From assembly GCA_964016885.1 (NCBI GenBank), contig OZ024741.1, positions 381,176,001-381,240,000 of the forward strand: 64,000 nucleotides of DNA, in the 5' to 3' direction. Positions 1,034 to 42,092 of the stretch are shown here, in pieces; position 1 is the stretch's first letter, and each line of letters begins with the position of its first letter. The position numbers and the translations under genes were made by a program. The notes under the pieces are model-generated. The model was not told the DNA's origin. It searched no databases and saw only the letters and a list, made by a program, of their open reading frames with translations. This stretch comes from Eledone cirrhosa. Lineage: Eukaryota.

Positions 1034-1075
<42 letters not shown>

Positions 1076-1115
1076 AAAATTTACGAAATGGAAATGCGGG
1101 TATATAGAATTTATT

Positions 1116-1236: not shown

Positions 1237-1646
1237 TTGTATTAGAATGATATGAAAATATTTCATACACTAGATAAAAGATAAAGAAGGAGGTAGGAAG
1301 AGAAGGGGAAGAGGGAAGTGAATAAGGTGGAGGGAGTCTTAGGGTTTAAGACTGTCAGACTAGTAGAGATTGTGAAGAGAGAATGTTTTGGCAGCAGTTA
1401 GCTTAATGAGGCGTGCTAAGGTTGGCTGGGAAGTAGATTCTTCTAGTGGTGTTGTTCGGACAAAATTTAGTTAGAGGGGTCAAAGTGGTACAGTGTCACA
1501 GACAAGTTATTAGGGCTATTATAGTAGCAGGTTATTTCTAAAGGGGTCCAGAAAAACAGTGTTTAGTACTATTATTATAGAAAGCAATATCTAGTGTATA
1601 AACATATAAGACAGAAATTTGCAAACGTTGGTGTAAAAAGGTAACA

Positions 1647-2945: not shown

Positions 2946-2971
2946 TCAGGTTCTAATGATTCGGCGGAGGT

Positions 2972-5449: not shown

Positions 5450-5481
<32 letters not shown>

Positions 5482-5484
<3 letters not shown>

Positions 5485-6616: not shown

Positions 6617-6618
<2 letters not shown>
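5482..6618. mobile_element. RTE-clade LINE with inverted 5' part (5482-~5915 minus; ~5930-6618 plus)
   Basis: IDFRKAFDSV, GVLxGDTLAP and FADD on minus; VGLRMN..KTK, FLYLG, LLYGAETWTL and RRLRLAGH on plus; (TA)n both sides. Confidence 0.9.
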
Positions 6619-6666
<48 letters not shown>

Positions 6667-15197: not shown

Positions 15198-15210
15198 GAT
15201 AATGATAATA

Positions 15211-15241
<31 letters not shown>

Positions 15242-15251
15242 TAATAATAAT

Positions 15252-16548
15252 TTGGGCGTTCTGGAGGCTGATGACATCAAGAACAAAAAAATGAAGGAAT
15301 TGATAAGAACTGAATACATTCGGAGAATAAGGAGCGTATTAAAGTCACATCTGAACAGTAGGAATGCCATAAGTGCAGTAAATTCCCGAGCTGTGTCTAT
15401 TATTAGGTACAGTGCGGGAATTCTGAGATGGAATGTTGCTGAACAGAAAGAAATGGATAGGAAGACTAGGAAGCTATTGACTATCTACAACATGTTCCAC
15501 AAGAGGAGTGATGTCGATAGACTCTACTTAAGGAGATCTGAGGGTGGAAGAGGTCTTATCAGCATAGAGGAGTGTGTTCAGATGGAGAAAAACAACCTAC
15601 ACAAATACGTGACTGATAGTAAGGAGCCAATGCTCAGAACTGTACTGAAGGAGGGAACAATAGGCCAGTGGATGTCCAAGGAGGAAATAACATCAAGGAG
15701 AAAGAGCAGCCTTCATGAATAATCCTTTCATAATACCTTCTTTGAGAAAACTGAATTTAGAGATCCACAGACATGGAACTGGTTGAAAAGAGGAGACCTT
15801 AAAAAGGCTACAGAAGGAATGTTAATGGCTGCGCAGGAGCAGGCCCTCAAAACGAAGTGGTTGAAACACCATATTTACAAGGAGGAGGCTAGCCCACTGT
15901 GCAGGATCTGTGGAGAGAGAGAGGAGACTGTGGCTCACATTGTATCCGAGTGTAAACACCTAGCCCAGACTCACTATAAGGGCTGGAGACATGATCTGAT
16001 GGGCAGGGTGATCCACTGGCACCTATACAAAGTAAACAATTTACCACATTCTGAGAAATGGTATGAGCATAAGCAAGAGGCGGTGATAGAAAACGATCAG
16101 GTGAAGGTGCTGTGGGATTTTAGGATACAGACGGACAAGAAACCGGAACACAATAGACCTGACCTGGTGGTTGTGAACGAAGAAAAAAGATCGTCCCTGA
16201 TTGTGGATGTGGCCTGCCCATTCGACACGAGAGTGCAAGAGAAGAAGAGGGAGAAAATTAACCGATACCAGGACTTAAAGTGGGAGGTAAAAAGGATTTG
16301 GAACTGCCATGAAGTCAAAGTGATCCCGATTGTCATAGGCGCACTAGGTACTATCTCAAAAAGTTTCCAGGGATGGTTAAAGAAAATTGGCCCCTTCACG
16401 CTTTTTGGAACGCTTCAAAAGGCATGCTTGCTGGGAACAGCAAGAACCGTCCGATACGTCCTGAATATCTGAGGCTGCAGGTAGTGGCTTGATATTCATT
16501 TCAACAAACTTTCCAGTTAACTAACATCAATGACTGAGACTCAAAGAG
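15252..16548 (+). mobile_element. 5'-truncated R4/Dong-type RLE LINE, family B
   Basis: YLG, RLYL..GGRGL, CCHC (CRICGEREETVAHIVSEC), RHD and PD-(D/E)xK (RPDL..VDVACP..EK..RY); (AAT)n both sides. Confidence 0.92.
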
Positions 16549-16585
16549 TAATAACAATTATAATAATAATAATAATAATAATAAT

Positions 16586-19500
16586 GAAGACGCACGTGGT
16601 GGAGAGAATCTTATGAAATCGCTCCCGTAAGTTTTTGATTTTTAACATATTTAAAACAATTGTGATATAACAATTCTTAGTATACATGAGACATAAAGCA
16701 TCCGACTCAGCTCTCAGAAAATTCGGATCCATAATATCCAGTTATATCGCTCAAATATTCAATGTTGTATTATAAATTTTATATTCAAAAAAGAAAATGG
16801 TTATAAATGGAAGAAAACCCCCTCTGTCTACACTATATAGAACAGCCAAATAACAGTAATTTCACCAATACTACAAACTAGATACACCACCTATACCATC
16901 ACCACTCTGTGTACACTAAATACAACAACCAGATAACGGCAATTTCACCACAACCACCACCACCAATCCCAGCATAATAATAATAATTACTATTATTGTA
17001 TCTCAAGATTTCTCAAAATGTTTAATTCAAATAATAAGGAAATATGTCAACACATATATTAAACATACGCGACAAACCGCATAGATGCACATATCAAACA
17101 AACGTATACTACTACAGTCTATTCAACAAAACTCAGTAACGAAAACGCTATCACTATAGTCAGCGCCACCACCACTCCACCATTACTACCACTATCCCAT
17201 TCTCGCCGCCACCACTCCTTCATTGCTACCACCACTATTTCCCCACTACCTTCTATTAACTTAAGAAAGGGGAAGGTGGTTGTATCACTAGACAAGGGAG
17301 AGGCTAGAAAAATATATAAATAGACTGACTTAGTGACTCGGTCAAACGTAAACGACTATGGAACTGCTGGCTCCCAGCTTCCCCACCAATAATAGAAAAA
17401 GCCCCAGCAACATCACCGACATAGCCAACAACATTAACAGGCAACTTCAGCAAAAAGTATATTATATTATTAATAATAATTTCATTCTTAAGCCACGCAA
17501 TGCTCACAGTAAGGAACCACTTATGATAATAACAATTTAAAAAACAACAAAAAAGAAGACCCCGTGACCAAGAAATACCTGAATGGCGGCCGCGGGGAAT
17601 AGCCGCGTCTCTAGGAGAGGACGATCCATCTAGTCTTGGTTGACACTCGTTCCAGAGGTGGTAACACGAAATGATTACCCCTTGGCGGTTAAGGATGAAA
17701 CGCGACAAAATAAAGGAAATGTCAAATGATAAAATCTCATACCAGATCGGCCGTCACCCGGATCAAAAAGGGCCGCGTCCCTCAGAGAGGAACCAGACTG
17801 GGGTCGAAAAATCAGCTAATGGTTCAAACTTTCCCATCACTTCGGAGTTGGAGACCTTCCATAACTGGAATACTCCTACTGTTGGCCCTCCATGCTCACC
17901 ACCAAGAAATCCAAAGAAAAAGAGAGGGAAATGGTCAAGGGAAGACAATAAAGAAGTCCTTGCGGCTTTCTAAACTGCCATGTACTACCCATCAAATAGA
18001 TCGAATACAGAACAGATATATATCAACTGGAAAAAGAAATATCCCGAATACAGAGGCTATATTGACAGTAACAAACTAGCCAATATACGAAGAAATATTA
18101 TTAAAAAAAAGTTACTAACTGATATAGAAATTGATCAGATTAAGCTATTAGCACAACGTCAACGAAGGGAAAATAAAACATGTGTCAGTCAAAACTTCGA
18201 ATCTCAGGGTTGGGGCGGAATCACTGACAACAGAACAAATTAAAGAAAGGATTGAAAAAGTGGCGGGAGTGCATGCTCAAGATGAAACTCAAATTAAAAC
18301 AATGAGATCGTAAATGATAAAGAAATGAATGAGAATGAACTTGCCAACTTGAAGGATGAAATTATGATCGAATGGATGAAAATGAAAGAATCTGACATGG
18401 GGAACGAGACACCCTCCCTAAGATCCAGAACTCCAAACAGAACCAAAAGATAATACACAAGACTAACATAATTCTCAAAAACATTATCATCACAAACAAA
18501 CTAAACATTACTGATTTAAATCATCTCTATTATGCACCGGCTAAAGTCACCACTCACTTATGTGGAGTGAAAATGAAAAACAAAGGAATTACCACAAGAA
18601 ATCTACTTGGCAAGAGAACATCAATCGCCAAATAAACCTTCTCCGGTCTGACATAGAAATTTTAACAAACTACAAAGTAGGTGAACATGTTAAACAAACT
18701 AAACTTAGAACATTGAAAAGAAAATACAGTATAAAATCAACAAGTGACATAGACATGCTGATAGAAATAATCAAGCAAAAATTGTCGGCCAAAGCTGCTC
18801 GTATAAGGCGCTTTGAAAAACGATCTAGATTCTATGAGGACAATAATATGTTCAAAAACAACCAAAGTAACTTCTACAGAAAAATTGGCAAGTCAACAAT
18901 AACTGCTAAATCAATACCACCCAAGGAGGAAGTGCAAGAATTCTGGGAAAAGATCTGGGCAGAAGAAAAAGTTCATAATATACATGCCCCATCGATAGAC
19001 AGACAAATGAAAGATACAGCTCAGCTCGAGGAACAAATATGGGAAAATATAACAGTTGAACAGTTGCGTTTGCCTCTTAGAATAACCAGCAAATGGAAAT
19101 CCCCAGGAAACGACAAAATACAAAATTTTTGGATAAATGCCTTCACAGAGTCTCATGAGCTGTTAGCCCAACCTTACAATGAAATAGTTAAGGAGCCAGA
19201 AAATATAACATCATGGCTAGTTAACAGCATTACATTCCTGCCTCCGAAGAATGATGAGACAAACAATCCCAAAAATTACAGACCGATAACCTGCTTGACC
19301 ACAATGTATAAAATGTTAACATCAGTCCTAACTGAATATACATATGACCACCTGATAACAAATGATCTATTTCCCAATGAGCAGAAAGGGTGTAAACGAG
19401 GCTCATATGGCTGTAAGGATCAGCTTTTGGTTAACAAAATGATACTGGAAGATTGTCATAATAGACACAAAAATCTATCAATTCCTTGGATAGATTATAA

Positions 19501-21456
19501 AAAAGCATTTGATAGTTTGCCACACAGTTGGATTGAAAAATGTTTAGAGATTTTCAAAATATCTCCCGTTGTCAGGAGGTTCCTGCCATTCAGTATGAAG
19601 ACATTGAAAACGACACTCCTTTTGAATAGTGAAAAAAATCACTGGAAGCTGGAGAAGTTAATATTAATTGTGGAATTTTTCAGGGTGACTCTTTATCACC
19701 GCTTTTATTCTGCGTCGCACTTATACCATTAAGTAAAATGCTCAATGAAACAAAACATGGATATAAAGTCTATGACAATACCATTAATCTACATGGATGA
19801 CCAGAAACTATTTGCAAAATATGATGAACAATTGCAAGGGCTATTATCCACTGTGGAGCAGTTCAGTGATGACATTAACATGGAGTTTGGACAAGATAAA
19901 TGTGCCAAAGCAACGTTCACCAGAGGAAAGATACTGAAATGTTCAGACATTAATCTTGATTGGGGGAAAGCGATAAGGAAACTTACAAATATATAGTTGT
20001 TTGTGAAGGAGACGGATTCAAGCACTCGACAATGAGGGAAAGGATAAGGAAGGAATGTTACCGCAGAGTAGAAGCAATCTTAAGAACGGAATTGAATGCA
20101 AAGAATAGGATCGATGCCATAAACACGCTTGCCATACCAGTAGTAACCTACAGTTACAATGTCATCAACTGGTCAAGCACAGATATCTGTAGGCTCGAGG
20201 CAAAAATTAGAAAATTCTTAACCATGCACAGAATGCATCACCGTAAGGCAGATAGGGATAGAATATATCTCCCTAGGAAAGAAGGAGGACGTGGGTAATA
20301 CAGTTAGATATTGCGTTGAAAATAGCAAGAATTGGATTATCTACATATCTAAGGGAATCACATGATTGGATGATCAAACTCGTTTTGAAACACGAAAGCA
20401 TCAAAGGATCATACTCCATTACAAAAGATGCACAAAGATACAGTAATGGACTACAAATTTCAGAAGTCCCATTTACTGCTGAAATGGAAAACACAGAAAA
20501 AGCAAAGCAGGTAAAAGCAACTGCAAAAAAAGAACTGTTACAGAAACTGGCTAAGAAATGGCAAGAAAAGCCTCTGTATGGAAAATACCCAGAACGAGCT
20601 AACAATCCTGATGTTGACAAAATGTTAACCCATAAGTGGTTGGCATCCTCTGGACTGAAATCGGAGACTGAAGGACTGATTATATCAGCACAAGATCAGT
20701 GTCTGCCAACAAAAAATGTCCAAGCCAACATAATAAAAAATGGATGCAACCCATTATGCCGTGTATGTAAAAAACAACCAGATACCATTGATTATATAAT
20801 TTCAATGTGCAGTCCAATAGCTCCAACCGAATACCTAAACAGGCATGACAGAGCTGAACAATACATGCATTGGATAATGTGTAAGCATTTTGACCTGCCC
20901 CATCAAAAGAATTGGTGGGAGCATCAACCACCTCCCATACATGAAAAAGATCACATCTCAATCTTGTGGAACTTTAGCATCCAAACTGACCGAAAAATAG
21001 ATGCAAATAGACCTGATATAATATTGAAGGACTTTAAAAAGAGGATATGCCTTCTAATTGATATGTCCGTTCCAATAGACAAGAATGTATCTATAAAAAC
21101 ATTTGAAAAATTGAGCATGTATAAGGACCTGGAGATAGAAATTGAAAAATGTGGAAATTGAGAACTAAAACAATACCAGTGGTATGGAATGATACCTAAG
21201 GGGTCTAATGATTACTTATCGCAAATCCCAGGAAACCCGCGTATAGGAGAAATACAAAAGATAGTACTAATGGGAACTGCCCATATACTAAGGAAGATTC
21301 TGTCAATATAAGTACATCACAAGTCTAAACACCTAAAGATGCATGTGTGAGTATGTATGTTCTTTCTTGAACATGGCGGACCTTGTTGTCTCTTGAGGTC
21401 ACTGGTTGTGACTTGGTGATAACTCGTATGAACATAAAGCAAGATAAATGCAGCTG
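16586..21456 (+). mobile_element. Near-full-length decayed R4/Dong-type RLE LINE, family A (putative leader 16586-17670 uncertain)
   Basis: Myb-like WSREDNKEV, RT (KSPGND, NYRPITCL, EQKG, IDYKKAFDS, QGD, YMDD), zinc-finger and RPD..ID endonuclease, broken by stops and frameshifts; ends in (AAT)n. Confidence 0.9.
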
Positions 21457-21502
21457 TAATAATAATAATAATAATAATAATAATAGTAATAATAATAATA
21501 AT

Positions 21503-21757
21503 ACTTTCTTTATTAATCACAGGGGATTACATAGAGGAGACATTAAGGACAGTACAGGACAATACAAGACGGTACAAATGGGCCTTTATGCGTGTAAAAA
21601 ACAAAATCAGAGGATGTAACAAAAAAATAGCAATGTAAACTTCCCCAATAAGGGGGAGACTTCCGAGGGACATTTGTCGAGAAAGCCCATTAAAAGGCCA
21701 CAGTGACCCTCACCACCAGGGAAAGTGCCCTCTCCCAGTTTTTCACCTTTAATTTAC
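21503..21757 (-). mobile_element. 3' terminal fragment of a Tx1-type LINE
   Basis: Closely similar to 35345-35610; AATAAA then (ATT)n on the sense strand. Confidence 0.85.
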
Positions 21758-21869
21758 ATTTATCTTGCTTTATGATCATACGCGTTATCACCAAGTCATA
21801 ACCAGTGACCCCAAGAGACAACAAGGTCTGCCATGTTCAAGAAAGAACATACATACACACACATGCATC

Positions 21870-21870
<1 letters not shown>
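21757..21870 (-). repeat. Inverted copy of the family A Dong 3' UTR fused to the Tx1 fragment
   Basis: Reverse complement of 21338-21450 with about 6 mismatches. Confidence 0.9.
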
Positions 21871-21925
<55 letters not shown>

Positions 21926-21937
21926 TAATAATAATAG

Positions 21938-24900
21938 GGAAGAAAAACGCACATGATGGATATATCGTTATGGAATCGCTCCCGTAAGTTTTTGATTTTT
22001 ACATATTTAAAACAACTGTGATAGAATAATTCTTATTACAAATGAAACATAAAATTACAGTTTTGACTCTCAGCAAGCGACAACGCATCACATTATGACA
22101 TAGGGCCCCAATATTTAATATTTAATTTTGGATCAGAAATGTTATAGTCAAAGAAGAGGAAAATGGCTACGGGGACAGACAGGCAAATCATTTCACCACC
22201 AACACCACCAACGCCACCATCACCACTACCACGCCAAAGAAATCTAGCCAAGTTACTCCAACTTCTATTTCTACTTCAACTTCAACACCATCACTACAGT
22301 ACTACGATCACATCACCACCACTGCCTCATTATCGCTACCGCCGCTATTCTCTCCCACTACCTCCTGCAAAGTACTACTAGCACATCACCACCACTACCT
22401 CATTATCGCTACCGCCGCTATTCTCTCCCACTAACTCCTGCAAATACAGAGGTATCGTAGTTACCCTACTAAATGAGGAAGGCATCAAAATATATAAATA
22501 GACTGATTTGATGACCCGGTCAAAAAATCAAAAAATCAAAAAATCAAAAAATCAAAAAATCAAAAATTCAAAAAATCAAAAATGAAAATCAAAACAGCAC
22601 AGCAGCAACGAAAAACGTAATGAAAAGAAAAAAGAAAAGAAAAACAAACAAACATACAAACAAACAAAAAAACTAAGTCAGACATTCAAACATTACATTA
22701 CAATGAAACTTATGCTTATTTTTTTAGGTTAGGTTTTTACCTAATTGTTTGTTTCTTTGTTTATGTTCGTCTACAGCGTGGTAGTGCCACGCTAAAATCA
22801 CCGGGGGTGATAAAATCACTGCGGGTGATGAAATCACCGGTGGTTATGTAACCATACATTCACCAATCCTCAATATGAATGTTTAAATGTCGAACCTAAA
22901 CAGTTCGAATAACGGTGAAGTGGCGACTGGAATGTCACGTGACAGACTCTTACCCAGCAGGTGCTCCCTGGCCCAGCAGCAGGGACCTGGCTGTCATCCA
23001 AATACTGCTGGTGTTGGAGGAAGAAGAAGAAGGAAAGGGACCAGAACCAACTGGACGAAAGAATTGAATAGAACTGTTATGCAATGTTACCTGAAGAGTA
23101 ACCCCAAGGAAAAAGGCCATAGGAAACGGATGCATAACTTTTGGAACGAGATTGGTCTATTTAAATTAGATGAACAAAAATTGGCCGGGCAGGCTCGGTT
23201 AATAAGAATTAATGGGTGGATAAGTGAGCTGGAACTGGAGCAACTCAGCAGAGAGATTAGATTGGAAATGGAGAGTGGAGTATGCCAGGAAAACGAACCA
23301 GTGGGAGATGAAGGTGAAGAGTGTGAGAGAACGGAGGAACCATCCAAAGCAGACAATGATCTGAATGCTGAAATAAATAATAACTGGAACAAAGATACGG
23401 CCATTAGGGAAATGAATGCAGACGGGCTAGGACAAGATTTGGTTGATATCCTAAACTTAGTGGTAGATGAAATGAACAATGATAGTGGGAAACCTATGAA
23501 CCTAAGATTTGTAGACAGGAACAAGTTAAAAGAAACAACAGCTAAGGTAAACAAAGTCATCCCATACCTTGAGGAGAGGAACTTTCACCAGTGCAACAAT
23601 ATCCTCAAAGCAACAGCAAATGTGGTGAGGAAATTACTTGGCATAAAAGCGAGAGGAAACAACAAACAAGAAAAATCAGAACCTTGGTGGAAGAAACGAC
23701 TGAATGGTCAAATCAGGGAAATGAGAAATGACATTGGAAATCTTGAGTCCCTACTGAATGGGACACTAGAAAACATAGACACTAAATATAGACTGGAAAT
23801 AAAGTACAAAACTAGGAGGAAAAAACTAAATATTATCATAGAGGAACTGAAGCAACGCATTGTAGCAAAGAGCGCAAAGATTAGGCGATACGAGAGCAGA
23901 GTCAGTCAGTATAGACAGAACCGCATGATTGACAACAACCAGAAGATGCTGTTTGGACAGCTTGAAGGGAAAGAAAGAGGCAACGACTTGATCCCTGAGG
24001 CGGAACAAACTAAGACATTCTGGAGAGGAATATGGGAGCAGGATCTTGAACATAATGACCAGGCAGTGTGGATTGAGACAGTACAAAAGGAGATAGTGAA
24101 CAGGCAGACCAACAAACTGATTTGAGTATCACAGTTGAAACTCTTAAAGGGCAGGCCAAAAAACTAAACAACTGGAAATCACCAGGCCCAGATGGTGTGC
24201 AGGGCTATTGGATTAAAAATATAACATCCCTCCACCCGAAACTGACAACCATGTTCAATGACTGCTGGATGCCAGGTGAGGTACCAGAGTGGTTGACAAA
24301 AGGTACCACAGTTCTGGTAATGAAAGACCGAACCAATGATGTTACCAACTATAGACCTATCACATATCTGTCCATAATGCGGAAACTGTTAACAAGCATT
24401 GTGTCTGAGGAAATCTACCATCACCTCCACATAAACAACATGTTACCGGACGAACAGAAAGGATGCCGAAAGAAGTCCCGTGGTACAAAGGACCAGTTAC
24501 TTATTGATAAGATGGTAACGAGGAATTGCAGGAGGAGACACACTGGGCTTGCCATGGGATGGATAGACTCCAAAAAGGCATTCGACATGGTACCTCATTC
24601 TTGAATAACCAAAAGCCTAGAGATCTCCAGGGTGGTAGATAACATCAGACAGTTGATGAGCAAAAGTATGAAGTCCTGGAAAACAGAGTTAACATCGGGC
24701 GGAGAATCCTTGGGAGGCGTGAGGATCAAGAGAGTTATCTTCCAGGGAGATAGTCTGTCCCCTCTGTTGTTTGTCCTTGCCCTGATCCCTCTGACCATTA
24801 TACTGCGAAAAGTGAGAGCAGGATACAAGTTGGGAAAGGGAGAACTTACCACCAATCACCTCCCCTTCATGAACGATCTTAAGCTCTTCGGGAAGAGTGA

Positions 24901-27900: not shown

Positions 27901-27927
27901 TAACATCAATGACTGAGACTCAAAGAA
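21938..27927 (+). mobile_element. Near-full-length decayed R4/Dong-type RLE LINE, family B, interrupted by a ~1.37-kb insert and a SINE
   Basis: ORF from 22887 (Myb-like WTKELN), RT motifs to 24960, resumes ~26341 (CGVLVMKRG..YKYL), CCHC/RLE, 3' UTR shared with 16473-16548. Confidence 0.9.
27699..27885 (-). mobile_element. SINE inserted in the Dong B 3' UTR with a 14-bp target-site duplication
   Basis: AA(A/C)TTTCCAGTTAA at 27685-27698 and 27886-27899; empty site at 16507-16520. Confidence 0.92.
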
Positions 27928-27928
27928 C

Positions 27929-27974
<46 letters not shown>

Positions 27975-27975
<1 letters not shown>

Positions 27976-28105
27976 TTTCTTTATTGGCCACAAGGGATGA
28001 CATCAAGAAAAACATTACATACGACACAGGATGGCACGATGTGGGTTTCGTGTGTGTAAAGATTTTTATTATTTCTATAAGAAAAGAAAAAGAAAAAGAC
28101 ATAGA

Positions 28106-28140
<35 letters not shown>

Positions 28141-31100: not shown

Positions 31101-31889
31101 TCCATGTTCACATTGGAACATTGATCTAGTCGATACCTGTCAGACAGTTCAAAACGTCTAAGCAGATTGGTGCGGCTCTTGCACACTCCTCCCCTATCCA
31201 CTAGCCCCACTCAATCCCAGCGTGCATCCAAGATACCGTTCCAGTCGCCCACTAACACTAAAGAGCGGGACGTTCCAAGAAAGGTCTCCAGACGTCTGAA
31301 GAAATCTGGCCGCCCTGCCCCAGGTGGGGCGTAGACGGCTACTAGCCTGAAAGCATTGCCTTCGCTGCCGGTCACGTCCAGCACCACTGACTTACTTTCT
31401 GGGTCCAGGAGATGGCCCGTATGGCGAGATCCAAGACTCTCCGAAAAAGGACGCAAGCCCTCCCCCCGATCTTGGACAGCTGGGAGATGCGTATACATCG
31501 TAGCCGCCGAAGACCGGTGCGAAAGCTCGTGCTTCGGAGATTCTGGTCTCGCTGATGGCCACCACATCTATGTTTAGTGACCTGAGGTAGTTGAGCAGGT
31601 GATTATGCTTCCAAGATGACCCCAGGCCTTGTGCATTTATACTGCCTATTCTAAGTACGGCCATGTTGGATGAGAAACGGGGCAAGTGCGAAAGGGTCAC
31701 TCACCTTGATCGTGTGGTGAAGGGACAGTAGAACCGTCCATTTGACTGGTCATGGGTGTTCCAAGAGTATGTCAGTGTATATCCTCTAGGTAACCGACCC
31801 TCTGAAGTCTCCAACTGCGTTGGGGAATTTTTTAAAAGTTTGTACTGTTCTATTTTGATATCAATGAAGCTTATGTTTGTTCGGAGAGT
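27975..31889 (-). mobile_element. 5'-truncated Tx1-type (L1 group) LINE: end of ORF1 plus decayed ORF2 (APE-RT-CCHC)
   Basis: IGSINAQG, ISET, VYAP, GDWN, DH, SPGLDGLP, NFRPITL, LDQSKAFDRV, VRQGCPLS, YADD, CPRC..ETVVHALVQC; (AAT)n both sides. Confidence 0.93.
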
Positions 31890-31913
31890 AATAATGATAA
31901 TAATAATAATAAT

Positions 31914-33659
31914 AAGCCACCTATTTTATATGGATGATTTGAAGCTATATTGCAAAGATAATGACGTCTTGGAAGGTCTTTTGCGGACAGTAAAAACGTT
32001 TAGCGATGACATCAGGATGGAGTTTAGACTTGACAAGTGTGCGAATGCCACTTTCAAGAAGGGGAAGCTTGTCATCTCAAACTCAGTTGAATTGGATCCT
32101 GAAACAATCATAAAGGAACTTGAGCAGGAACAAATCTATAAATACTTCGGGATTAATGAGGGCTCTGGCATACAGCATGCAACTATGAAAGAGAGGATAA
32201 GGAAATAATGTTATAGGAGAGAACGTGCAGTTCTGTGATCAGAACTAAACGCTCGTAACAAGGTGCTAGACATAAATCCCTAGGCAGTCCCAGTTGTCAC
32301 TTATAGCTTCGGTATGTTGAACTGGAATATGAGTGAAATCAAAAGAAACGACACCAAAGTCCGTAAGCTACTGACCTGTAATAGGATGCACCATCCAAAA
32401 GCAGATGTGGATCGTCTTTACCTTCTTAGAATTCACGGAGGCCGGGGCCTGATCCAATTTGAAATTGCTTACAAGACCACCATCATTGGACTGGCCAAAT
32501 ACCTTGAAAGAACTAACGACCGTATGCTGAAACTTGTTGAAAAGCATGAGAGAAGTAAGAAGCTTCATTCTATCTTGAAGGAGAGCAAAAAATATGCTAC
32601 TGATCTCATGCTTGTTACCCAGGCTGGAAAGACGAAAGAAACTGCTGCAACTGATGCTGCTAGGCACATAAAATCACTGGCAAAAGCAAAAGGGCAAGGA
32701 CAATTAGCATGAAATTTGGAGCAGAATCCTCTGCATGGCAAATATGTGACCCGTAGCAAACAAGCTGACGTTGACCAAAAGCGCACCCATCAGTGGCTAC
32801 GTAGTTCAGGGCTAAAGGCAGAGAGTGAAGGCTTCATCTTAGCTGCCCAAGACCAAAGCTTATTGACTCCTAATTACCAGGCCAATGTTATGATAAACGG
32901 AATAAACCCAAAGTGCCGACTCTGCAATGCTGAGGTTGAAACAGTGGATCACTTAGTATCTGGATGTAAAGTTTTGGCACCAGAAGAATCCAAATATAGA
33001 TATGACAGAGTTGGCTAATATCTACACTGGGTAATATGTCGGCATTACAAAATCAAAGCTGAAGACAAGGGGTACAACCATCACCCTGAGGCTGTATCTG
33101 AAGTAGAAAAAGTAACAATTTTCTGGGACTTTCCTGTACATACTGACAGGACCATAAAAGCAAATAGACCTGACATCATTATAAAAGATAAACATAACAA
33201 GGTCTGTTTGTTGATAGATATGAGCGTCCCATGTGATCACAATATCGCGGCAAAAGAATTTGACGGGCTACGAAAATATAATGATCTGCTTATTGAAATT
33301 AAGAAAATGTGGCACCTCAAGGCCGTTACAATACCATTGATTCTGGGAGGACTGAGAATGATCAAGAAAGGTACAGAACAATATTTGCAAATGATTCCCG
33401 GATTACTCTCTCTGCACGAGGTGCAAACAATTGTTTTGACTGGTATTGCACACGTATTGAGAAGAGCACTATCGCTGTAAGATTAATAACCCTCCTTGTA
33501 TTTATATATGCATATGCACATGTGTATATATGTATACTGTTTTTTGTTTGTTTTTGTTTTTATTATAATCAATGTGCTGTATTAACTGGCTTACCAATGC
33601 ACACTGTGAATTTATTTGCCCTAGGTGTCAGGAAGACACTCGGTATATATCTCAGAAAC
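31914..33659 (+). mobile_element. 5'-truncated R4/Dong-type RLE LINE, family C
   Basis: SHLFYMDDLKL, CRLC..ETVDHLVSGC, NRPDII..IDMSVP; starts right after (AAT)n. Confidence 0.92.
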
Positions 33660-33689
33660 AATAATGAAAAAAAAAAAAAAAATAATAAT

Positions 33690-33911
33690 GATTTCATTTA
33701 TTGGCCTCAAGGGACAATACAAAGACAAGGACCGTGGGTTTACAATAAGGTCGAGTAAAAGTGCACAATGGCAAGACCAATTCAACAATGAAAATATAAA
33801 AAATATAAAATAAACTATGCATAAATATAACAAAATAAATTCCCCATTAGGGAGAGGACGACCCAGGAGTGACTCAGGTACCCCACCAATCCTGAACCAC
33901 CCTGCCCTTTG
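33690..33911 (-). mobile_element. 3' terminal fragment of a divergent Tx1-type LINE
   Basis: Terminus CCTTGAGGCCAATAAATGAAATC(ATT)n on minus and the TTCCCC..GGGAGA hairpin shared with the other Tx1 copies. Confidence 0.7.
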
Positions 33912-35124
33912 GAAGGAATTGATAAGAACTGAGTACATATGGAGAGTGAGGAGCGTATTAAATCACATCTAAATAGTAAGAATATCATAAGTGCAGTGAA
34001 TTCCAGAGCTGTGTCTATTATTAGGTACAGTGCGGGAATTCTGAAATGGAATGTTGCTGAACAAAAAGAAATGGATAGGAAGACTAGGAAGCTATTGACT
34101 ATCTACAACATGTTCCACAAGAGGAGTGATGCCGATAGACTCTACTTAAAGAGATCTGAAGGTGAAAGGGTCTTACCAGCATAGAGGACTGTATTCAGAT
34201 GGAGAAAAATAACCTATGCAAATACTTGACTGACAGTAGGAAGCCAATGCTCAGAATTGTACTGAAGGAGAAGACAATAGACCAGGGGATGTCCAAGGAG
34301 GAAATAACAACAAGGAGGAAGAGCAATCTTCATGAAAAATCCTTTCATAGTACCTTCTTTAAGAAAACTGAATGTAGAGATCCACAGACATGGATCTGGT
34401 TAAAAAGAGGACACCTTTTAAAAAGCTACAGAAAGAATGCTAATGGCTGCGCATGAGCAAGCCCTCAAAACGAAGTGAGTTAAACACCATATTGACAAGG
34501 ATCTGTAGGATCTGTGGAGAGAGAGAGGAGACTGTGGTTCACATTGTATCCGAGTGTAAACCCCTAGCCCAGACACACTATAAAGGCTGGAGACATGATG
34601 TGATAGGCAGGGTGCTCCATTGGCATCTATGCAAAGTAAACAATTTACCACATTCTGAGAAGTGGTATGAGCATAAGCCAGAGTCGGTGATAGAAAACGA
34701 TCAAGTGAAGGTGCTATGGGATTTTAGGATACAGACGGACAACAACTTAGAACACAATAGGCCTGACCTGGTGGTTTTCGACAAGGAAAAAAGATCGTGC
34801 CTGATTGTAGATGTAGCATGCCCATTTGACACGAGAGTGCAAGAGAAGGTGAGGGAGAAAATTAACCGATACCAGGACTTAATGTGGGAGGTAAAAAGGT
34901 TTTGAAACTGCCTTGAAGTCAGAGTCGTCCCGATTGTCATAGGCGCACTAGGTACTACCTCAAAGATTTTCCAAGGATGGTTAAAGAAAATTAGCCCAGC
35001 CCCGCTTTTTGGAACACTTCAAAAGGCATGCTTGCTGGGAACAGCAAGAAGCCTCGGATACGTCCTGAGTATCTGAGGCTGCAGGTAGCGGCTTGATATT
35101 CATTTCAACAAACTTTCCAGTTAA
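33912..35124 (+). mobile_element. 5'-truncated R4/Dong-type RLE LINE, family B
   Basis: High similarity to 15292-16520 and 26495-27698. Confidence 0.92.
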
Positions 35125-35315
35125 ATAACTGTTTCTACTTTAGGCACAAGGCCAGCAATTACCCAGTGCATTATTGGTACTTTATTTTATCGATCCCGTA
35201 AGGATGAAAGGCAAAGTGAACCTCGGCGGGATTTGAACTCAGATCGTAAAGGGACGTAACTATGCTGGATAGCATGGCGTCCGACCCTCTACCGATACTG
35301 CCAATCCACCGCCCT
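35125..35315 (-). mobile_element. Full-length SINE at the same Dong B 3' UTR site as 27699
   Basis: Follows AACTTTCCAGTTAA; complete 5' end AGGGCGGTGGATTGGCAGTATCGG. Confidence 0.92.
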
Positions 35316-37398
35316 TAATAATTGTAATAATAATATATAATAATGCTTTCTTTATTAACCACAAGGGTTTAGACAAAGTAAGACATTAAGGACAGTACAA
35401 GACAATAAAGAACAATAGAGGACCGTACAAATGGTCATTGTGCGTGTAAAAAAACAAAAACAGAGGATGTAACAAAAAAAGAAACAATGAAAAATTCCCC
35501 AATAGGGGGAGACTTCCAAGGGCCATCGTGAAGAAAGCCCATTAAAAAAGCCACGATGACACTGACCACCAGGGCAAGTGCCCTCTCCCAGTTTTCCACC
35601 TTTAATTTACAGGCACATACACAGAGTAATACACAGAGTAGGCCCATTCACACGGGCCATTCTTGTCTCTCTCTCCCACCTTTCAACAAAATGCTGGGAA
35701 GAGAGCACTTCCTTCTCTACCCTGATTTTCCTTTTTAAATGAAATTTGAAAAAGTTAATCAGGGCATCACCAAGAAGTAAGTGCTCGTCTTCAGCCATTT
35801 CAAACGCGTCCACCATACTATCTCTTTCGCCATGGCCACCGGAAAGATACAAACTGCCTGCCTTTCCCGGCTAAAGGAAGAGGGAGTGGGGCAATCCTCA
35901 CGATGGCCTGAGCTGATAGCCGGATCCGTCCTACACGCAACAGCAGGTGTTCGTCATAAACCCACAAGTCAGCATGCTCGGACACTGGACGAGTGCGTGC
36001 AGAACCGTTTTGTCGCCCTGCGCGCATCTCGGATTTGCTCGGCTGACGGCACCTCCATGCCTGTAGATTCTATTCCGAACTGGTAAAGCTCCTCGGTAGC
36101 ACGGCCAGGCCTGGGATTTCTGGAAGTTATCCATAGACCCCAGCCCGAAATTCTTTCGAAGAGATTAGCTAGTTGATTTTCGTCGACGCCTAGATTTTCC
36201 CAAAGTATGTCGTCGCTCTTACCCTCCACTAAACATCTATAGGACGCCGAGGTGGAGTTTCCATCGATCACATTGACCGATTGGTCGAGGGCTGTGAGCG
36301 CCTGAAGACATCCCAGTCTCCAAGCGCTCCCTCTCGGTCTTCGCTTGACGCAGGACTGCAGTTCCGTCAAGGAGAGGAGCTGGGGAAAGACCTGATCACC
36401 GTCGAGGAAGAGGTGGAGATGTCGTAGCCTGAGCGCGTGTCTGCGCAACATCAGCCACGGCATGTCCAGCCCTCAACGTAGCGGGTGTTGACAGCAGATG
36501 GACAGCCTGACCATCGGAGCGCGTCCCTTCCACAAAAAGCGTAAGAGCAAACGCTCCAGCGAGAGTCAGGCGAAGCTTAGGCAAGGCACGACGGTCAGGC
36601 GGTAGTAGATGACGGACGCGATGTACGTGTTAGCCACCTCCGCTCGACCTTTCAGGGATAGCTTACTCTCCGCCCATTTCTGGGTGAGAGAATCCACCCT
36701 GCTCGTCACCTCGTCCCAGATATTGTCCGTCTGGAGGTCCGGTCCGAACCAGACTCCTAGCAATTTAACCGGTCCGACGGTCCAGCGCCCGACGACGCTG
36801 TTGGACGGCATGGACCTTCCTCTCCACGTGCCGAGCTGCTGGCCCACCGAATTTTCCTGGTTGATCATTGATCCTGTCACCGCTTCGTATTCTCTTAGTG
36901 TAGTGCCGATCGCCTCAATGTGTTTGGCGTTCGACACCACTACGGTGACATCGACCGCCTATGCTAACACGGATCTTCCGCATCCTAGTTCGCGCGGGAC
37001 CCCCCCTCAACGTCTCCAGTTTATGCAGTAATGGCTCGAGAGTCAATACGTACAAGAGGGACGAGAGGGGACATCCTTGGCGGACCGAGCGCATGATGTT
37101 GAACGGTTCCGAAAGGTGACCGTTCACTCTCACCACAGAACGGATGTCATGGTTCATGGCAGCAATCCAGCCTCTGAAGACGGGCCCAAAGCCAGCCTCC
37201 TTCAGGACTGCCGCCCGATAACGATGGGGTCTATCGAAAGCTTTCGACTGATCTAAATTGATCAAGGACGCGCTCGTGCCAGGTTCCCTAGTTACCTTCT
37301 CCACGATGTATCGCATGAGGTGGAGGTTGTCGTGGATGGATCTGTTTGGAATGGAGCAATTTGACCCTCTCCCACCAGACCTCCAACGACAAGCGCCA

Positions 37399-38240
37399 AT
37401 GAATTTATTGTGTAAAGTGCTCAGGTGCACTACAACTCTTCAAAGGTGTATGTATAGTACATAGAATAATACACAAATGTCAGGGAAGTAAATAGTGTAT
37501 GAGTCATGGTATACATGTGTGTATGTGTGTGGCGGGGGAACATTAGCTGTAGTGTTGGCGGATCTCGGGAAGCATGGAGGCCTTAAAGGGTGCAGTGTCT
37601 CGACAGCTAACAACTGATGCAGGTAGTTTGTTCCATGATCCAGCAACTCTGAGCGTGAAAAAATGTTTCCGAAAGTCATGGGAACTGTGCTGTTTTCTGA
37701 CTTTGTGGGCATTTCCACGTATGTTAGACACATGGAAATCAAAAAGGTACTCAGGGTTGTTGTTGGCAAGATGGGTAACAATTTTGTGGGTGTTTACCAA
37801 GTCAGTTGCCAGGCGTCGGAGCTTCAATGTATCCATGCCCAGGGAAGCAAGGCGCTCAGAGTATAGTAGATGCCTGATGGAGGGTATTCGCTTGGTTGCA
37901 CGTCTCTGAACACTTTCCAGGCGGTCAATGTTCTGAGCAAGATAGGTGTTCCAGACTGGTGATGCATATTCTAAGTGTGGCCGCACCATAGCCATGTACA
38001 GCCTAACATAGATATCTGGAGAGTGGCTGACAAAGATCTTGCTGAGTGATGCTAAGACGCCCTCGGCCCTCTTGACAATTTTAGAGACGTGCTTCGTCCA
38101 AGGCAAATTGCTGCTGACCGTTATGCCCAGGTCACGTTCACAAGAAGACGTATGTAGACGTTGGGTTTTTACTCCCAAAATGCATGGTGGTGCACTTGTC
38201 CACAGCTAGCTTGAGTTGCCAGTCTGAGATCCATTGTTTC
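37399..38240 (-). mobile_element. 5'-truncated CR1/L2-group LINE nested in the Tx1 RT
   Basis: WQLKLAVDKC, ERDLGI, VRPHLEYASPVW, LESVQRRATK, FFTLRV..WNKLP; 3' UTR ending AATAAATTCATT; splits Tx1 between KVLA and LALVV. Confidence 0.9.
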
Positions 38241-39849
38241 ATTGCTAGCACCTTGGCCAAAATCTTAAACTCTGTATCAAGCAGAGTTATGGGCCTGAAA
38301 TTATCTATGTTATCCCCCTTGTTCGGATCTTTTCTCAGCAGCTCCACCGCTCCTCGGCTCACAGAGCTGCGAATTCTCCCGTTCTGTTGCCAGTTGCAGT
38401 AGACGTCCGCCAAGAGGCCTCCGAACTAGTCTGGCATCTGTACGCAAAGTTCATAGAGCAGACCATCCAAATCAGTCATTGCTGTTGTTATCCGCTTTTC
38501 GCAACACCCCGCCTCAGTGGCCGAGAGCCGCGGCAGTCCGTCGAGGTAGACACTAAAGTCCATCCCTCGATCCGGCCCGCCGCTGCCCCGAACAGCTGAG
38601 CGAATTGTCGCTGAAAAGTTTCACACATTTGCCCGGGATCGAGTAGTATGCGCCCGTCGTGGTACACCAAAGACCGGATCGTGGCTTTGTTGCCACGACG
38701 CGCCTCCGCCAATCGGGCCCATTGAACGGCTTTCGTCCCCTCGTGTCTGAGAGCACGCACCCTAGCTCTGACAACACAGCCTTCGTGCTTTGCATTGAAG
38801 AATTGGTCAAGGGCCAATTTTGCCGCAAGTACGTCGGTCGCGATGTCTTTGCTAAGCGCCTCGTCTAATTTTCTAACTAATTCTCCCTCTGCTCTATTTT
38901 TCTCTATTGCTAAAGCCTTACTAAACCTAATGGACTCTATTCTAATTGCTCTTTTCAGAGCAAACCACCACTTGTTGTTGACGATGGCCCTCGTCAACGC
39001 CCGCTTAACTAGTTCGCTAATCCGGTCTCTGTAGGCCTTGCGCGCTGGTAAGGACGCGTTTAGCTTCCAGTAGCCGGGTCCTCGTCTATGAAGCCTATCT
39101 AAGTGAAGCACACAGATCACGAATTTGTGGTCCGTGTAGCTAACTATCTTGAATTGTGGACAGCCTATGCTAGACCTATCTATTTCTCTACAAACTACAC
39201 TATCTAGATATGATCTGGATGACCCTATGCGATTTGTCCAAGTCCACATTGGCACATCGGGAAATCCAATCGGTACCTGTCAGACAGTTCAAAACGCCTG
39301 AGCAGGTTGGTGAGGCTCTTGCACCCTCCTCCCATATCCGCTAATCCCACACAGTCCCAGCGTGCATCTAAGATCCCGTTCCAGTCGCCCACTAACACTA
39401 AAGTGCGGGACGTTCCAAGAAAGGTCTCCAGACGCCGGAAGAAATCAGGCCGCCCTGCTCCTGCCGGGGCTAGGACGGCCACTAGCCTGAAAGCTTGCCC
39501 GTCTCCGCTGGTCACGTCTAGCACCACCAACTTACCTTCTGGGTCCAGGAAGATGGCCCGTATGGCGAGATCCAAACCTCTCCGAAAAAGCACAGCAACT
39601 CCTCCCCCCGATACGGGACGGCTGGGAGATGCGTACACATCGTAGCCACCGAAGATCGGTGCGTAGGCCCGTGCTTCGGAGATTCTGGTCTCGCTGATGG
39701 CCACTACATCTATGTTTAGTGACCTGAGGTCGTTGAGCAGGTGGCCCTGCTTCCATGACGACCCCAAGCCACGCGCATTTACGCTGCCTATTCTGAGAGA
39801 GGTCATGTTGAAATGGAGTGGAAAAGATGGGAAATACCACTTCTCGTAG

Positions 39850-41805
39850 AGGAAGGATAGTTTGTCCATCTTTTTCACTGCTTGTGGCCTCCTCCGGAAG
39901 GATGTCCTTATAAATCCTCCTGGAGAGTGTTTGTCGGAGTCTCCGATGTATTTGGGGAATTTTTGTTTTAGTGTCGTGTACGTTTTCTGTGTGATGCGAG
40001 TGATTTGTATGTGTGGAGGTGGTGTGAACTTTTGGGTTGTTGTATAGTCTTTTTCTGTGATGCTGGTGTTGTGTTGGATGTAGTGTAATAATTGGTTGTT
40101 GTTCAAATGTAATGCTGTGTAGTGTGTATCGTTTTGGTTGTTTTGTTTTGTCTGCGTTTGTTGTGGGTTTGTTTCTGTTACGCTTTTTGGTGACTTTTGT
40201 GGTGTTGGTGATGGTGGTGTTGGGGTTAATGATGGTGATGGTGTTGGTGTATGTGGTGATAGAGTTGGTGATTCTGGTGTGTATGGTGGCATATCTGTCC
40301 TAACTTTTTTGTTTGTTAATTTATTTGTTTCTCTCTGTATTTTGTTTTTGGAGGGGGAAGGAAGAGAATTTTCTTTTTTGGTTTCTTTTTTTTTTTCCTG
40401 ATACCGTTTCCCACTCCTCGTCGTCACAATCTGTCTCCAGTTGCGATAAGCCAGGGAGTTGAAAATCCTCCACAGGCGTTGCTTTTGGTTGTGGCGTGGT
40501 GGATGGTGTAGGCACTGGTGCTAGTTCTGGCGCGTTGGGTGGTGGTGGTGTTGGTTTTGCTACTGTTTGTGGGGTTGTTGCTGTTACAGTTGCTTCTCTT
40601 GTTGCTGCTATAGTTGTTGCCGCCATTTCTGCTGCTGGTGGTGTTGATGGTTGAGTCACTGGTGTGGGTAAGAGAGGTGGCCTCAACCTCTTAGCCTGAG
40701 GGCAGAAATCCCTCAGGTGGGTTCCTTCACCACAAACGACACACCTAGGTCTTCTGCCCTCGATGATTACGGTGAGGTGGCTGCCGTCGGTGAGGTCTAT
40801 TACCTCTGGGATCTCCTCAATGCTTTTATGGTCCGCTTGGATCAGGAGCTCCATCCCAGATCCGGACCAGTTCTCCTGCTTTTCTTTTGCTATTTCTATT
40901 ATTTTGGTGTTGGCCTCGATGCCGGCGAGGACGGCCGCCATTAGCCAGGGAATTTCGATGGCCGGTGGAACGTGGGTCACCCTGATCTTCACAAGTCTCT
41001 GGCCACAATAGCTTGGGACGAGTGTGAAGTCGTCACTTCTTAATGGGGCCATGGAGTGTTCTCTGGCCTCCTGTGGTGTTTCAAAGAACACGTACACGGT
41101 TTCATACTTCTACCCACGTCTGATGTGGGTCTTTTTTGCCGACACATGTCCCAAAGCTTTTTGGATTTGGGACTCGGATGCCCGTTCCACTCGGCGCGAT
41201 TTTATGTTTATTGTCCGATAAGACACGGTGCATAGCAGACGTTGCTCCATTTTATTAGGTGGGGGTGAGGCTGACCCTGTACCCATCTTTCTTTACCATT
41301 TCTTTGGCTTCTTCTAATTCTTCCTGAGTTACCTGGATCGCTTCGCACTATTTTGCTACTCTGGCAAAACTCAGGGTAGTTTTCTTAATTTCATTGTTGC
41401 TGTTGTTGTTATCGTTATTTTTGCTATTGTTAATTTTAGTTTCAGTTGTGGTGGTGGTGGCGTCAGTGGTGTTCGGTGTGGAAGAGTTCATTTTGGTTGA
41501 ATTCATTTCGATATCAGGAGTTAATTTATTTTTTCTTTTGTTTCTGTTGTCGCTGTGGTGGTGGTGGGGGTGGTGGTTGTCGCGGTGGTGGGGGTGGGGG
41601 TGGTTGTTGTCGCGGTGGTGGTGGTGGTGGCGGCTTTAACACCAGCAATCATTGGTAATGGCGGGAAATGAACGTGTGCCTGAGACAAATTTAAAATATT
41701 CGTACTGCTTACATTTCCAGTGTTGGCAAACGTATCAATATTTACAATGGTGGTGTCGGTGTGAGGTGTTAGAGTGTGAGGAAGGAGTGACTCTGAGACA
41801 TCCAT
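39850..41805 (-). pseudogene. Tx1 ORF1 (gag-like nucleic-acid-binding protein), frameshifted
   Basis: Pieces 41521-41805, 40321-41097 and 39850-40427; CX2CX4HX4C knuckle, RRM-like segment, low-complexity linkers. Confidence 0.8.
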
Positions 41806-42020
41806 GATTTTTCAAAGAAACATTTTTGTTTGATAATTATAAAAAGTTTAAATTTTGGGCTGAAGGCCCCAATATTTTTGAGTGTTCTTTTCAGATAACA
41901 ATGTATGTGCACTTATATACAGTTAACAATAAAAATTTTCCATAAATGGCAATTCTAAATAACTGAAAATAACAAACCTTTGCGGAGTTCACGATGATAC
42001 GATTTACTACGTAGGTCGCC

Positions 42021-42079
<59 letters not shown>

Positions 42080-42092
42080 GAAGAAGAAGAAG
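42021..42092. repeat. (AAT)n(AAG)n microsatellite at the right edge of the LINE nest
   Basis: Direct reading; other (AAT)n tracts at 15198, 16549, 21457, 21870, 27928, 31890, 33660-33689 and 35316. Confidence 0.97.

What the first reader, a model, noticed from the sequence alone, without database searches (positions are those of the whole stretch)
15198..42092. 27-kb (AAT)n nest shared by two unrelated site-specific LINE clades with a strict orientation rule
Seen: five RLE (R4/Dong) copies from three families are all on + with (AAT)n flanks. Four APE (Tx1) copies are all on - with (ATT)n flanks on their sense strand. Every Tx1 3' end faces a Dong 3' end across a short (AAT)n (21456/21503, 27927/27975, 33659/33690, and 35315/35345 with a SINE intervening). 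Known: Dong targets (TAA)n, and some Tx1 families (Kibi, Koshi) target other microsatellites. Inference: an (ATT)n-specific Tx1 lineage converged on the same target but nicks the opposite strand. Each insertion regenerates targets, so arrays feed themselves, and convergent transcription could silence both. Penelope and RTE copies here instead sit mostly in (TA)n, suggesting niche partitioning by microsatellite.
Basis: partly seen in the sequence, partly recalled or inferred. Interest (0 to 1): 0.75.

Follow-up and report, generated by a model that had tools for sequence, protein, structure and literature searches.

The report
ATT-seeking Tx1 LINEs share Dong's target
In this likely octopus genome, two unrelated kinds of jumping gene sit in the same AAT/ATT repeats facing opposite ways and pile into stacks such as this 27-kb one, likely because each cuts its own strand and leaves a fresh landing site, while a younger sister group of one of them sits in TCTA repeats instead.

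Summary
The 27-kb block holds five Dong-type RLE copies on + and four L1/Tx1-type APE copies on -, mostly spaced by (AAT)n. Elsewhere in the genome, 29/29 full-length Tx1A 5' ends have (ATT)n upstream. So do 18/44 truncated junctions (0/44 AAT; background 0.5%). Six copies show 14-21-bp target duplications starting ATTAT. A CR1-like family with the same ATT tail shows none (0/9), so this is a target, not only a tail. Dong carries (AAT)n at 27/27 5' junctions. The polarity rule holds for 94/97 neighbours. Tail-to-tail pairing is not a rule: Tx1 3' ends meet Dong in 10/58 cases, Tx1 in 11 and a SINE in 12. An abundant SINE shares the ATTAT duplication signature. Sister families Tx1E/F (young, intact ORF2) sit in (TCTA)n (24/29 5' junctions), a target switch within one lineage. 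I found no ATT- or TCTA-targeting Tx1 in the papers searched; Repbase was not searchable. The scan found the same thing before: seven other pieces of this genome and one other genome. Silencing by convergent transcription is untested.

The parts
15199..15251 (+). (AAT)n array, left border
15252..16547 (+). Dong/R4-type RLE LINE family A, 5'-truncated 3' part (CCHC finger, RHD and PD..D..K-like motifs read from the translation; motif names recalled)
16549..16585 (+). (AAT)n spacer
16587..21456 (+). Dong-type family B, near full length, decayed (RT Pfam RVT_1)
21457..21503 (+). (TAA)n spacer shared by the DongB tail and the Tx1 tail
21504..21758 (-). Tx1-like 3' fragment (83% identical to Tx1A)
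21757..21869 (-). Inverted 113-bp piece of the DongB 3' UTR joined to the Tx1 5' junction; exception to the polarity rule, possibly a template switch
21870..21936 (+). (AAT)n spacer
21937..27926 (+). Dong-type family A, full length, interrupted by an unassigned 1.3-kb insertion (24966-26270) and a SINE
27698..27884 (-). SINE inside the DongA 3' UTR, with a target duplication of about 14-18 bp
27929..27973 (+). (AAT)15 spacer
27976..31888 (-). Tx1-like family B, 5'-truncated just upstream of ORF2, (ATT)n at both junctions
31889..31915 (+). (AAT)n spacer
31916..33659 (+). Dong-type family C, 5'-truncated
33660..33690 (+). Degenerate spacer (AAT units around an A16 run)
33691..33909 (-). Tx1-like family C 3' fragment; no ATT at its 5' junction
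33912..35129 (+). DongA fragment lacking (AAT)n at the 5' junction and lacking its last ~45 bp
35124..35314 (-). SINE (about 190 bp) with ATT-type tail, same polarity as Tx1
35316..35344 (+). Degenerate (TAA)n spacer
35346..42020 (-). Tx1-like family A, full length (about 5.85 kb without insertion): ORF1 remnant with a zinc-knuckle-like motif, ORF2 APE-RT-zf remnants
37401..38229 (-). CR1-like LINE 3' part inserted in Tx1A at a non-repeat site (clade label from recalled motifs; no Pfam hit); used as tail-only control
42021..42092 (+). (AAT)19 followed by (AAG)5, right border

Best explanation
The block is a stack of independent retrotransposon insertions into one (AAT)n repeat: Tx1-like APE LINEs (and a SINE they likely mobilise) sit with ATT on their sense strand and Dong-type RLE LINEs with AAT, likely because each enzyme primes reverse transcription from the opposite strand of the same repeat. 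Shown: the strand-specific flanks, the 14-21-bp duplications starting ATTAT, and the polarity of neighbours. Inferred: the Tx1 endonuclease nicks the AAT strand 3' of ...ATAAT, the RNA's AUU end anneals there, and the second nick falls about 17-21 nt away. Each insertion therefore leaves ATT units on both sides (duplication plus tail), which slippage would lengthen. Dong does the same from the ATT strand. Every junction becomes a new target for both, so arrays would grow with a fixed polarity. Tail-to-tail and head-to-head contacts follow from that polarity and need no partnership. A sister branch of the same Tx1 lineage (Tx1E/F) uses (TCTA)n, so target preference changed within this lineage; the direction of the change is unknown.
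For: Tx1A full-length 5' flanks: ATT 29/29, AAT 0/29. Tx1 3' flanks start ATTAT in 28/29 (A) and 25/29 (B). Truncated Tx1 5' junctions: ATT 18/44, 21/44 counting duplications, AAT 0/44, background 49/9,960. Non-repeat duplications of 14-21 bp start at the first base after the element in L007, L013, L019, L024, L027, L029. Control: the CR1-like family has the same tail (starts ATTAT 29/29) but 0/9 ATT 5' junctions and 0/29 Dong or Tx1 neighbours (Fisher p=0.02, or 0.008 with duplications). Dong: AAT at 56/58 3' ends and 27/27 5' junctions, ATT 0. Polarity: 94 of 97 direct neighbours, from 145 anchored ends. SINE: 30/55 copies have duplications of at least 12 bp, 22 of the 27 non-repeat ones begin (A)ATTAT, median 17 bp. 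C precedes ATTAT in 10/22 against 16% background (p=0.001), although the SINE's own last base is A. Tx1E/F: TCTA at 39/50 3' ends and 24/29 5' junctions, ATT 0, background 19/9,960. The tree has an A+B clade (SH-aLRT 99) and an E+F+Argonauta clade (98) inside one clade (100).
Against: 26 of 44 truncated Tx1 junctions lack (ATT)4 and 23 lack both it and a duplication. Some are alignment breaks or later rearrangements (e.g. L123, L124), but I did not resolve them, so the preference may be loose. One full-length Tx1A (L055/L121) sits in a DongB 3' UTR in the same orientation as Dong, with (ATT)n upstream where the UTR has none, so some 5' ATT may be made during insertion. CR1 elements may leave little or no duplication (recalled), which weakens that control at short sites. 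Pyrimidine at -1 (18/22) is not above background (p=0.13). Loci are the best-scoring 29-30 of each search, and some neighbour pairs may be counted from both sides. No nick was measured.
Confidence: 0.8

Rival explanations
1. RNA-guided site choice. A lax endonuclease nicks many AT-rich sites, and only nicks that expose a primer complementary to the RNA's (AUU)n or (AUCU)n end are extended. The target switch would then be a change of RNA tail, not of protein.
For: Duplications begin with the same letters as the tail. The predicted hairpin loop differs by only 1-2 residues between ATT and TCTA families (NRIGSSR against NRSGTSR/NRSGSSR). PMC6007223 (abstract) proposes that 3' microsatellite-like repeats of the RNA help set cleavage or priming sites for RTE elements.
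Against: The CR1-like family has the same tail yet avoids the arrays. C is enriched just outside the SINE duplication, where the RNA has A. Tx1L endonuclease is sequence-specific on its own (PMC1950540, passages). The two mechanisms can act together.
Confidence: 0.3
2. Tx1 specifically seeks Dong 3' tails (hitch-hiking, as Tx1L does in Tx1D), giving obligatory convergent pairs and mutual silencing.
For: 4/4 in this window (order p about 0.04). DongA 3' ends are followed by an opposite Tx1 in 11/29. Several full-length Tx1A copies end on DongA 3' ends.
Against: Only 10/58 Tx1 3' ends touch Dong; 11 touch Tx1, 12 a SINE and 25 nothing recognised. Dong is as common head-to-head at 5' ends (8/29; p=0.28). 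The neighbouring nest has Tx1-Tx1 tandems.
Confidence: 0.07
3. No targeting: the ATT is only a tail, and the clusters arise from retention in low-recombination DNA or from local duplication.
For: The CR1-like family shows that ATT tails arise without targeting. The two window DongA copies with a SINE at the same UTR position share 8 rare variants.
Against: ATT lies at 5' junctions, including truncated ones, with exact duplications and never as AAT. The copies belong to six or more families of differing divergence, and those two DongA copies share as many or more variants with copies elsewhere (8 and 18).
Confidence: 0.03

Closest known systems
Kibi (TC)n and Koshi (TTC)n of teleosts; crocodilian Tx1 families in (TTCC)n/(TTTC)n (PMC4494074: passages and section 15; PMC3812793: passages)
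   Same: Tx1-type APE LINEs that target microsatellites, with related families on different repeat units
   Different: Known units are pyrimidine-run TC-type; here they are ATT and TCTA, in a mollusc-type genome. ORF2 is only about 26-28% identical to the named fish proteins and not resolved as their sister group.
Dong (Bombyx mori), DongAg, DongBg, Darwinula Dong1/2; R4 clade (PMC3812793, PMC7998251, PMC3774820: passages)
   Same: RT plus C-terminal restriction-like endonuclease, (TAA)n target, already reported for molluscs; Dong-R4 and L1-Tx1 are listed as recently active in Octopus vulgaris (PMC13282606)
   Different: Three families here share their target with an APE lineage entering from the other strand; no such sharing was seen in the passages read.
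Keno (APE, Tx1) and Utopia (RLE) in U2 snRNA genes; R1/R2 in 28S rDNA; TRAS/SART in telomeric repeats
   Same: Unrelated or distinct LINEs converging on one repeated target. Keno is from PMC4494074 passages and Utopia from the PMC4640811 listing. R1/R2 sharing and the opposite orientation of TRAS and SART are recalled, not from a call.
   Different: Here the target is a dispersed microsatellite that each insertion re-creates, so mixed arrays can grow anywhere in the genome.
SINEU / Tx1-Mar of crocodilians (PMC4494074, passages)
   Same: A SINE assigned to a Tx1 partner by shared target preference
   Different: The target here is an ATTAT motif, not a Mariner element. The SINE looks tRNA/CORE-like (recalled; not tested).

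Membership tests
L1/Tx1-type APE non-LTR retrotransposon | ORF2 with N-terminal APE endonuclease, RT and C-terminal zinc finger | tested here: met
   Pfam Exo_endo_phos, RVT_1 and zf-RVT in window remnants and in the intact 1,145-aa ORF2 of Tx1E/F
L1/Tx1-type APE non-LTR retrotransposon | Separate ORF1 with a zinc knuckle, upstream of ORF2 | tested here: inconclusive
   638-aa ORF1 in Tx1E with a CX2CX4HX4C-like motif; Pfam zf-CCHC only E=0.24, below cut-off
L1/Tx1-type APE non-LTR retrotransposon | RT closer to L1 than to R2-type elements | tested here: met
   Human L1 ORF2p E=9e-34 against R2 E=5e-19
Tx1 clade proper | Monophyly with Xenopus Tx1L, Keno, Kibi and Koshi in an RT tree | tested here: inconclusive
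   Named hits include Danio 'transposon TX1 149 kDa protein' (28%) and a Takifugu RT, but the quick tree leaves their group, plant L1 and this lineage in an open fork. Reference Tx1L/Kibi/Koshi/Keno sequences were not on hand.
Target-specific Tx1 family | One sequence type in more than 20% of flanks (criterion in PMC4494074 methods passage) | tested here: met
   29/29 full-length and 18/44 truncated 5' flanks ATT; 24/29 TCTA for E/F
Target-specific Tx1 family | Endonuclease nicks the target in vitro | not testable with these tools
   needs biochemistry
Dong / R4 clade | Single ORF: RT followed by CCHC finger and restriction-like endonuclease, no APE | tested here: met
   Translations show the C..C...H...C, RHD and RPD..D..K-type motifs (motif names recalled). 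RVT_1 and no APE domain in the pieces scanned. RT closer to R2 (E=2e-26) than to L1 (E=7e-13).
Dong / R4 clade | (TAA)n target on the sense strand | tested here: met
   AAT at 56/58 3' ends and 27/27 5' junctions
Dong / R4 clade | Phylogenetic placement with B. mori Dong and Ascaris R4 | tested here: inconclusive
   1,729 homologues; the 120 listed carried no informative name; no tree built
Dong / R4 clade | 5' HDV-like ribozyme and N-terminal Myb/SANT-like domain | tested here: inconclusive
   An Rfam scan of 14000-43000 found no ribozyme; no dedicated model was built and the Myb domain was not tested
SINE mobilised by this Tx1 lineage | Shared 3' end and shared insertion signature | tested here: inconclusive
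   Same duplication start, length and polarity. 3'-end similarity is weak: shuffle p 0.003-0.03 for the five Tx1 ends, 0.04 for DongB, 0.6 for CR1, uncorrected.

The most novel reading that the evidence does not exclude
An octopod-restricted L1/Tx1 lineage has radiated across microsatellite niches. Older families took the complementary strand of Dong's (TAA)n target and, with Dong and a partner SINE, build self-extending polarised arrays. A currently active sister branch with intact ORFs switched to (TCTA)n, which is free of Dong, through a few endonuclease changes. This gives a natural matched pair for working out how APE endonucleases acquire sequence specificity.
Probability: 0.4. Interest if true: 0.68.

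Novelty: new variant of a known kind. Interest (0 to 1): 0.48.

Why it matters
It adds two targets, (ATT)n and (TCTA)n, to the list for Tx1-like LINEs as far as the searched papers go. It also offers a mechanism for dense LINE stacks in octopus-type genomes, where TE hotspots are mapped but unexplained (PMC13282606). Two sister groups about 64-66% identical in ORF2, with different targets and with intact open frames available, make the open question of endonuclease versus RNA-tail control of site choice directly testable. It probably also identifies the LINE partner of a very abundant SINE. The convergence of APE and RLE elements on one repeat is of a known type.

Tried and rejected
RNA evidence: no RNA holder listed, so expression, piRNA and convergent silencing were not assessed. 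Metagenome scan for flanks of the outgroup protein P0012: nothing, so the ancestral target is unknown. Rfam: no ribozyme or other real family, only one chance match on the AAT repeat. Origin of the inverted DongB piece: the local copy equals the family majority there, so fold-back and template switch to another RNA cannot be told apart. Local duplication of the two SINE-bearing DongA copies: inconclusive; among 41 DongA 3' UTR matches in fetched loci, the SINE at that position appeared only in loci overlapping this window. A pyrimidine rule at -1 looked significant (18/18) but that was a selection effect; after adding 4 rows called with a leading A it is 18/22, p=0.13. The careful tree did not finish, so only the quick tree is reported. 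First reading of Tx1F as (ATATT)n-specific, from one locus, was rejected: it is TCTA. Obligate Tx1-Dong pairing was rejected. Literature searches showed no ATT- or TCTA-targeting Tx1. Kojima and Fujiwara 2004, Repbase and Dfam were not available. Fig. 3 and the supplements of PMC4494074 and the supplement of PMC13282606 were not seen and could list such targets.
Full report
Setting. The window is G000:C2:381176001-381240000 of a 3.0-Gb genome. I infer an octopus-type host from the repeat content and from an Argonauta hians homologue, 56% identical to the Tx1A protein. The family labels A-F are mine.

Observation. The 15.2-42.1 kb block is almost entirely retroelement. In order: (AAT)n, DongA fragment (+), (AAT)n, DongB (+), (TAA)n, Tx1 fragment (-), 113-bp inverted DongB UTR (-), (AAT)n, DongA (+, with a 1.3-kb unassigned insertion and a SINE), (AAT)15, Tx1B (-), (AAT)n, DongC (+), degenerate spacer, Tx1C fragment (-), DongA fragment (+), SINE (-), degenerate (TAA)n, full-length Tx1A (-, with a CR1-like insertion), (AAT)19(AAG)5. 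Pfam gives APE, RT and zf-RVT for the minus-strand copies and RT for the plus-strand ones. The plus-strand translations carry RLE-type motifs.

Target or tail? Queries excluded the repeats. Each search returned the best 40 matches, of which I took 30 (25 for some) and dropped the window's own copy. All 29 full-length Tx1A 5' ends have (ATT)4 or more within 40 nt upstream, and none has AAT. Because 5' ATT might travel with the RNA, I examined truncated copies. Of 55 Tx1 rows, 7 were full length and 4 tandem rows were dropped. Of the remaining 44, 18 have ATT, 21 have ATT or a duplication of at least 15 bp, and 0 have AAT, against a background of 49/9,960 windows from 200 kb of arbitrary genome stretches. 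The 23 negatives include alignment breaks and were not resolved. Six copies in degenerate targets show duplications of 14-21 bp that begin ATTAT at the first base after the element.

Control and Dong. A CR1-like family ends in the same CATTATT tail (29/29) but has 0/9 ATT 5' junctions; 17 of 26 rows were dropped because the element ran past my reference. It also has 0/29 Dong or Tx1 neighbours. DongA and DongB have AAT at 56/58 3' ends and 27/27 5' junctions, never ATT.

Polarity and pairing. Of 145 anchored Tx1 and Dong ends, 97 have a recognised neighbour within 130 nt, and 94 obey the rule Tx1 and SINE one way, Dong the other; some pairs may be counted twice. Pairing is not special. Tx1 3' ends meet Dong in 10/58, Tx1 in 11, SINE in 12 and nothing recognised in 25. 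Tx1A 5' ends meet Dong head-to-head in 8/29 (p=0.28). A second nest 11.7-24 kb past the window's end has the same polarity and tandem Tx1 copies. The four-of-four pattern here (p about 0.04) is best read as chance in a Dong-rich array.

SINE. Among 29 copies from a direct search, 17 have a duplication of at least 12 bp and 24 are followed by (A)ATTAT. Among 55 near-full copies in all loci, 30 have duplications; 27 are non-repeat (12-27 bp, median 17) and 22 of these begin (A)ATTAT. Some rows are not independent (three from L278; L121 and L124 share a site). Only 8/29 have an ATT array upstream, so the core target is a short motif. C precedes it more often than chance (10/22 against 16%, p=0.001), while pyrimidines overall do not (p=0.13). 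The SINE 3' end resembles the Tx1 3' ends weakly. Mobilisation by this Tx1 lineage is likely but inferred.

Sister families. The arbitrary stretches held two further families about 70% identical to Tx1B at DNA level. The best matches of Tx1E are 99-100% identical to the query, as are most Tx1F copies (86-100%). Both have an intact 1,145-aa ORF2, and Tx1E an intact ORF1. They carry TCTA at 39/50 3' ends and 24/29 5' junctions, never TAGA or ATT; background is 19/9,960 (three overlapping loci dropped). The quick tree (SH-aLRT only) groups A+B (99) and E+F+Argonauta (98) within one clade (100), sister to unnamed proteins about 41% identical. A/B and E/F are 62-66% identical. The loop that PMC1950540 (passages) ties to target selectivity reads NRIGSSR in most A/B copies and NRSGTSR or NRSGSSR in E/F; its role here is a guess. 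The ATT families are more decayed (best matches 83-96% identical), but the direction of the switch is unknown.

Other niches. (TA)5 follows 17/23 Penelope ends and 12/24 RTE 3' ends, against 236/3,980 background windows, with no AAT. Tail and target were not separated for these.

Mechanism. Shown: flank strand, duplication start and length, polarity. Inferred from standard target-primed reverse transcription: the first nick lies on the strand complementary to the element's sense. That is the AAT strand for Tx1, 3' of ...ATAAT, and the ATT strand for Dong. Duplication plus tail leave repeat on both sides, so both clades keep inserting at old junctions. The main rival is selection of nicks by RNA-tail annealing (PMC6007223, abstract); both may operate.

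Comparison with what is known. Dong on (TAA)n is known, including in molluscs (PMC7998251, PMC3812793, PMC3774820: passages). Microsatellite-specific Tx1 families are known for (TC)n, (TTC)n, (TTCC)n and (TTTC)n (PMC4494074: passages and section 15). O. vulgaris annotation lists active Dong-R4 and L1-Tx1 families without target analysis (PMC13282606: part 1 of 3 and passages; the word 'target' does not occur in its main text). Passages of PMC8967140, PMC9115989, PMC3747384 and PMC4758252 added nothing on targets. Ten searches found no ATT- or TCTA-specific Tx1, but Repbase, Dfam, the 2004 source paper, figures and supplements were not seen. Strict Tx1-clade membership is inconclusive; it works like Kibi and Koshi. 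The scan's own notes report the same system on seven other pieces of this genome and in one other genome. They are unreviewed and are not counted as support.

Verdict. A real feature and a new variant of a known kind. The shared target and the polarity stand; obligatory pairing does not; silencing is untested. Interest 0.48.

Noticed in passing
L215 (G000:C3:320003797-320009419, minus) and L206:2586-6286: Young sister Tx1 families E and F with intact ORF2 (E also ORF1) that sit in (TCTA)n and form tandem arrays of their own
   Followed up: yes
L310-L311 (about G000:C2:381251700-381264100): Second (AAT)n nest about 33 kb downstream of this one, same polarity, with tandem Tx1 copies
   Followed up: partly
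window 21757-21869: Inverted DongB 3' UTR fused to a Tx1 5' junction with 2-nt microhomology; possible template switch between the two clades' nucleic acids
   Followed up: partly
window 27698 and 35124: Two DongA copies carry a SINE at the same 3' UTR position, not seen in DongA UTRs fetched from elsewhere
   Followed up: partly
L121:3416-3604, L124:2376-2560 (oriented coordinates), L304: A SINE with the same duplication at the same position inside Tx1A in separate loci; perhaps a SINE-bearing Tx1A subfamily
   Followed up: no
L055/L121 (G000:C3:262596689): Full-length Tx1A inside a DongB 3' UTR in the same orientation, with (ATT)n upstream where the UTR has none
   Followed up: partly
window 24966-26270: 1.3-kb insertion in DongA with no match in my library; contains (AG)10
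   Followed up: no
window 1067-4213: Penelope-like element pair in inverted arrangement (99% identical arms) between (TA)n tracts; further Penelope-like remnants at 49.1-55.7 kb (label from recalled motifs, no Pfam hit)
   Followed up: partly
window 5481-6620: RTE-like element with an inverted 5' part between two (TA)n tracts
   Followed up: partly
window 42078-42092; L031, L044, L057, L058: (ATT)n arrays upstream of Tx1A often grade into (CTT)n
   Followed up: no
L232/L233, L239/L240, L248/L249: Tandem Tx1E fragments with identical truncation points, suggesting local duplication or repeated copying of one RNA
   Followed up: no
window 42020 and 16587/21937 (5' ends): Very precise, conserved 5' starts in Tx1A and a shared ~150-bp 5' segment in DongA and DongB (84%); a self-cleaving ribozyme is possible but Rfam found none
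   Followed up: partly
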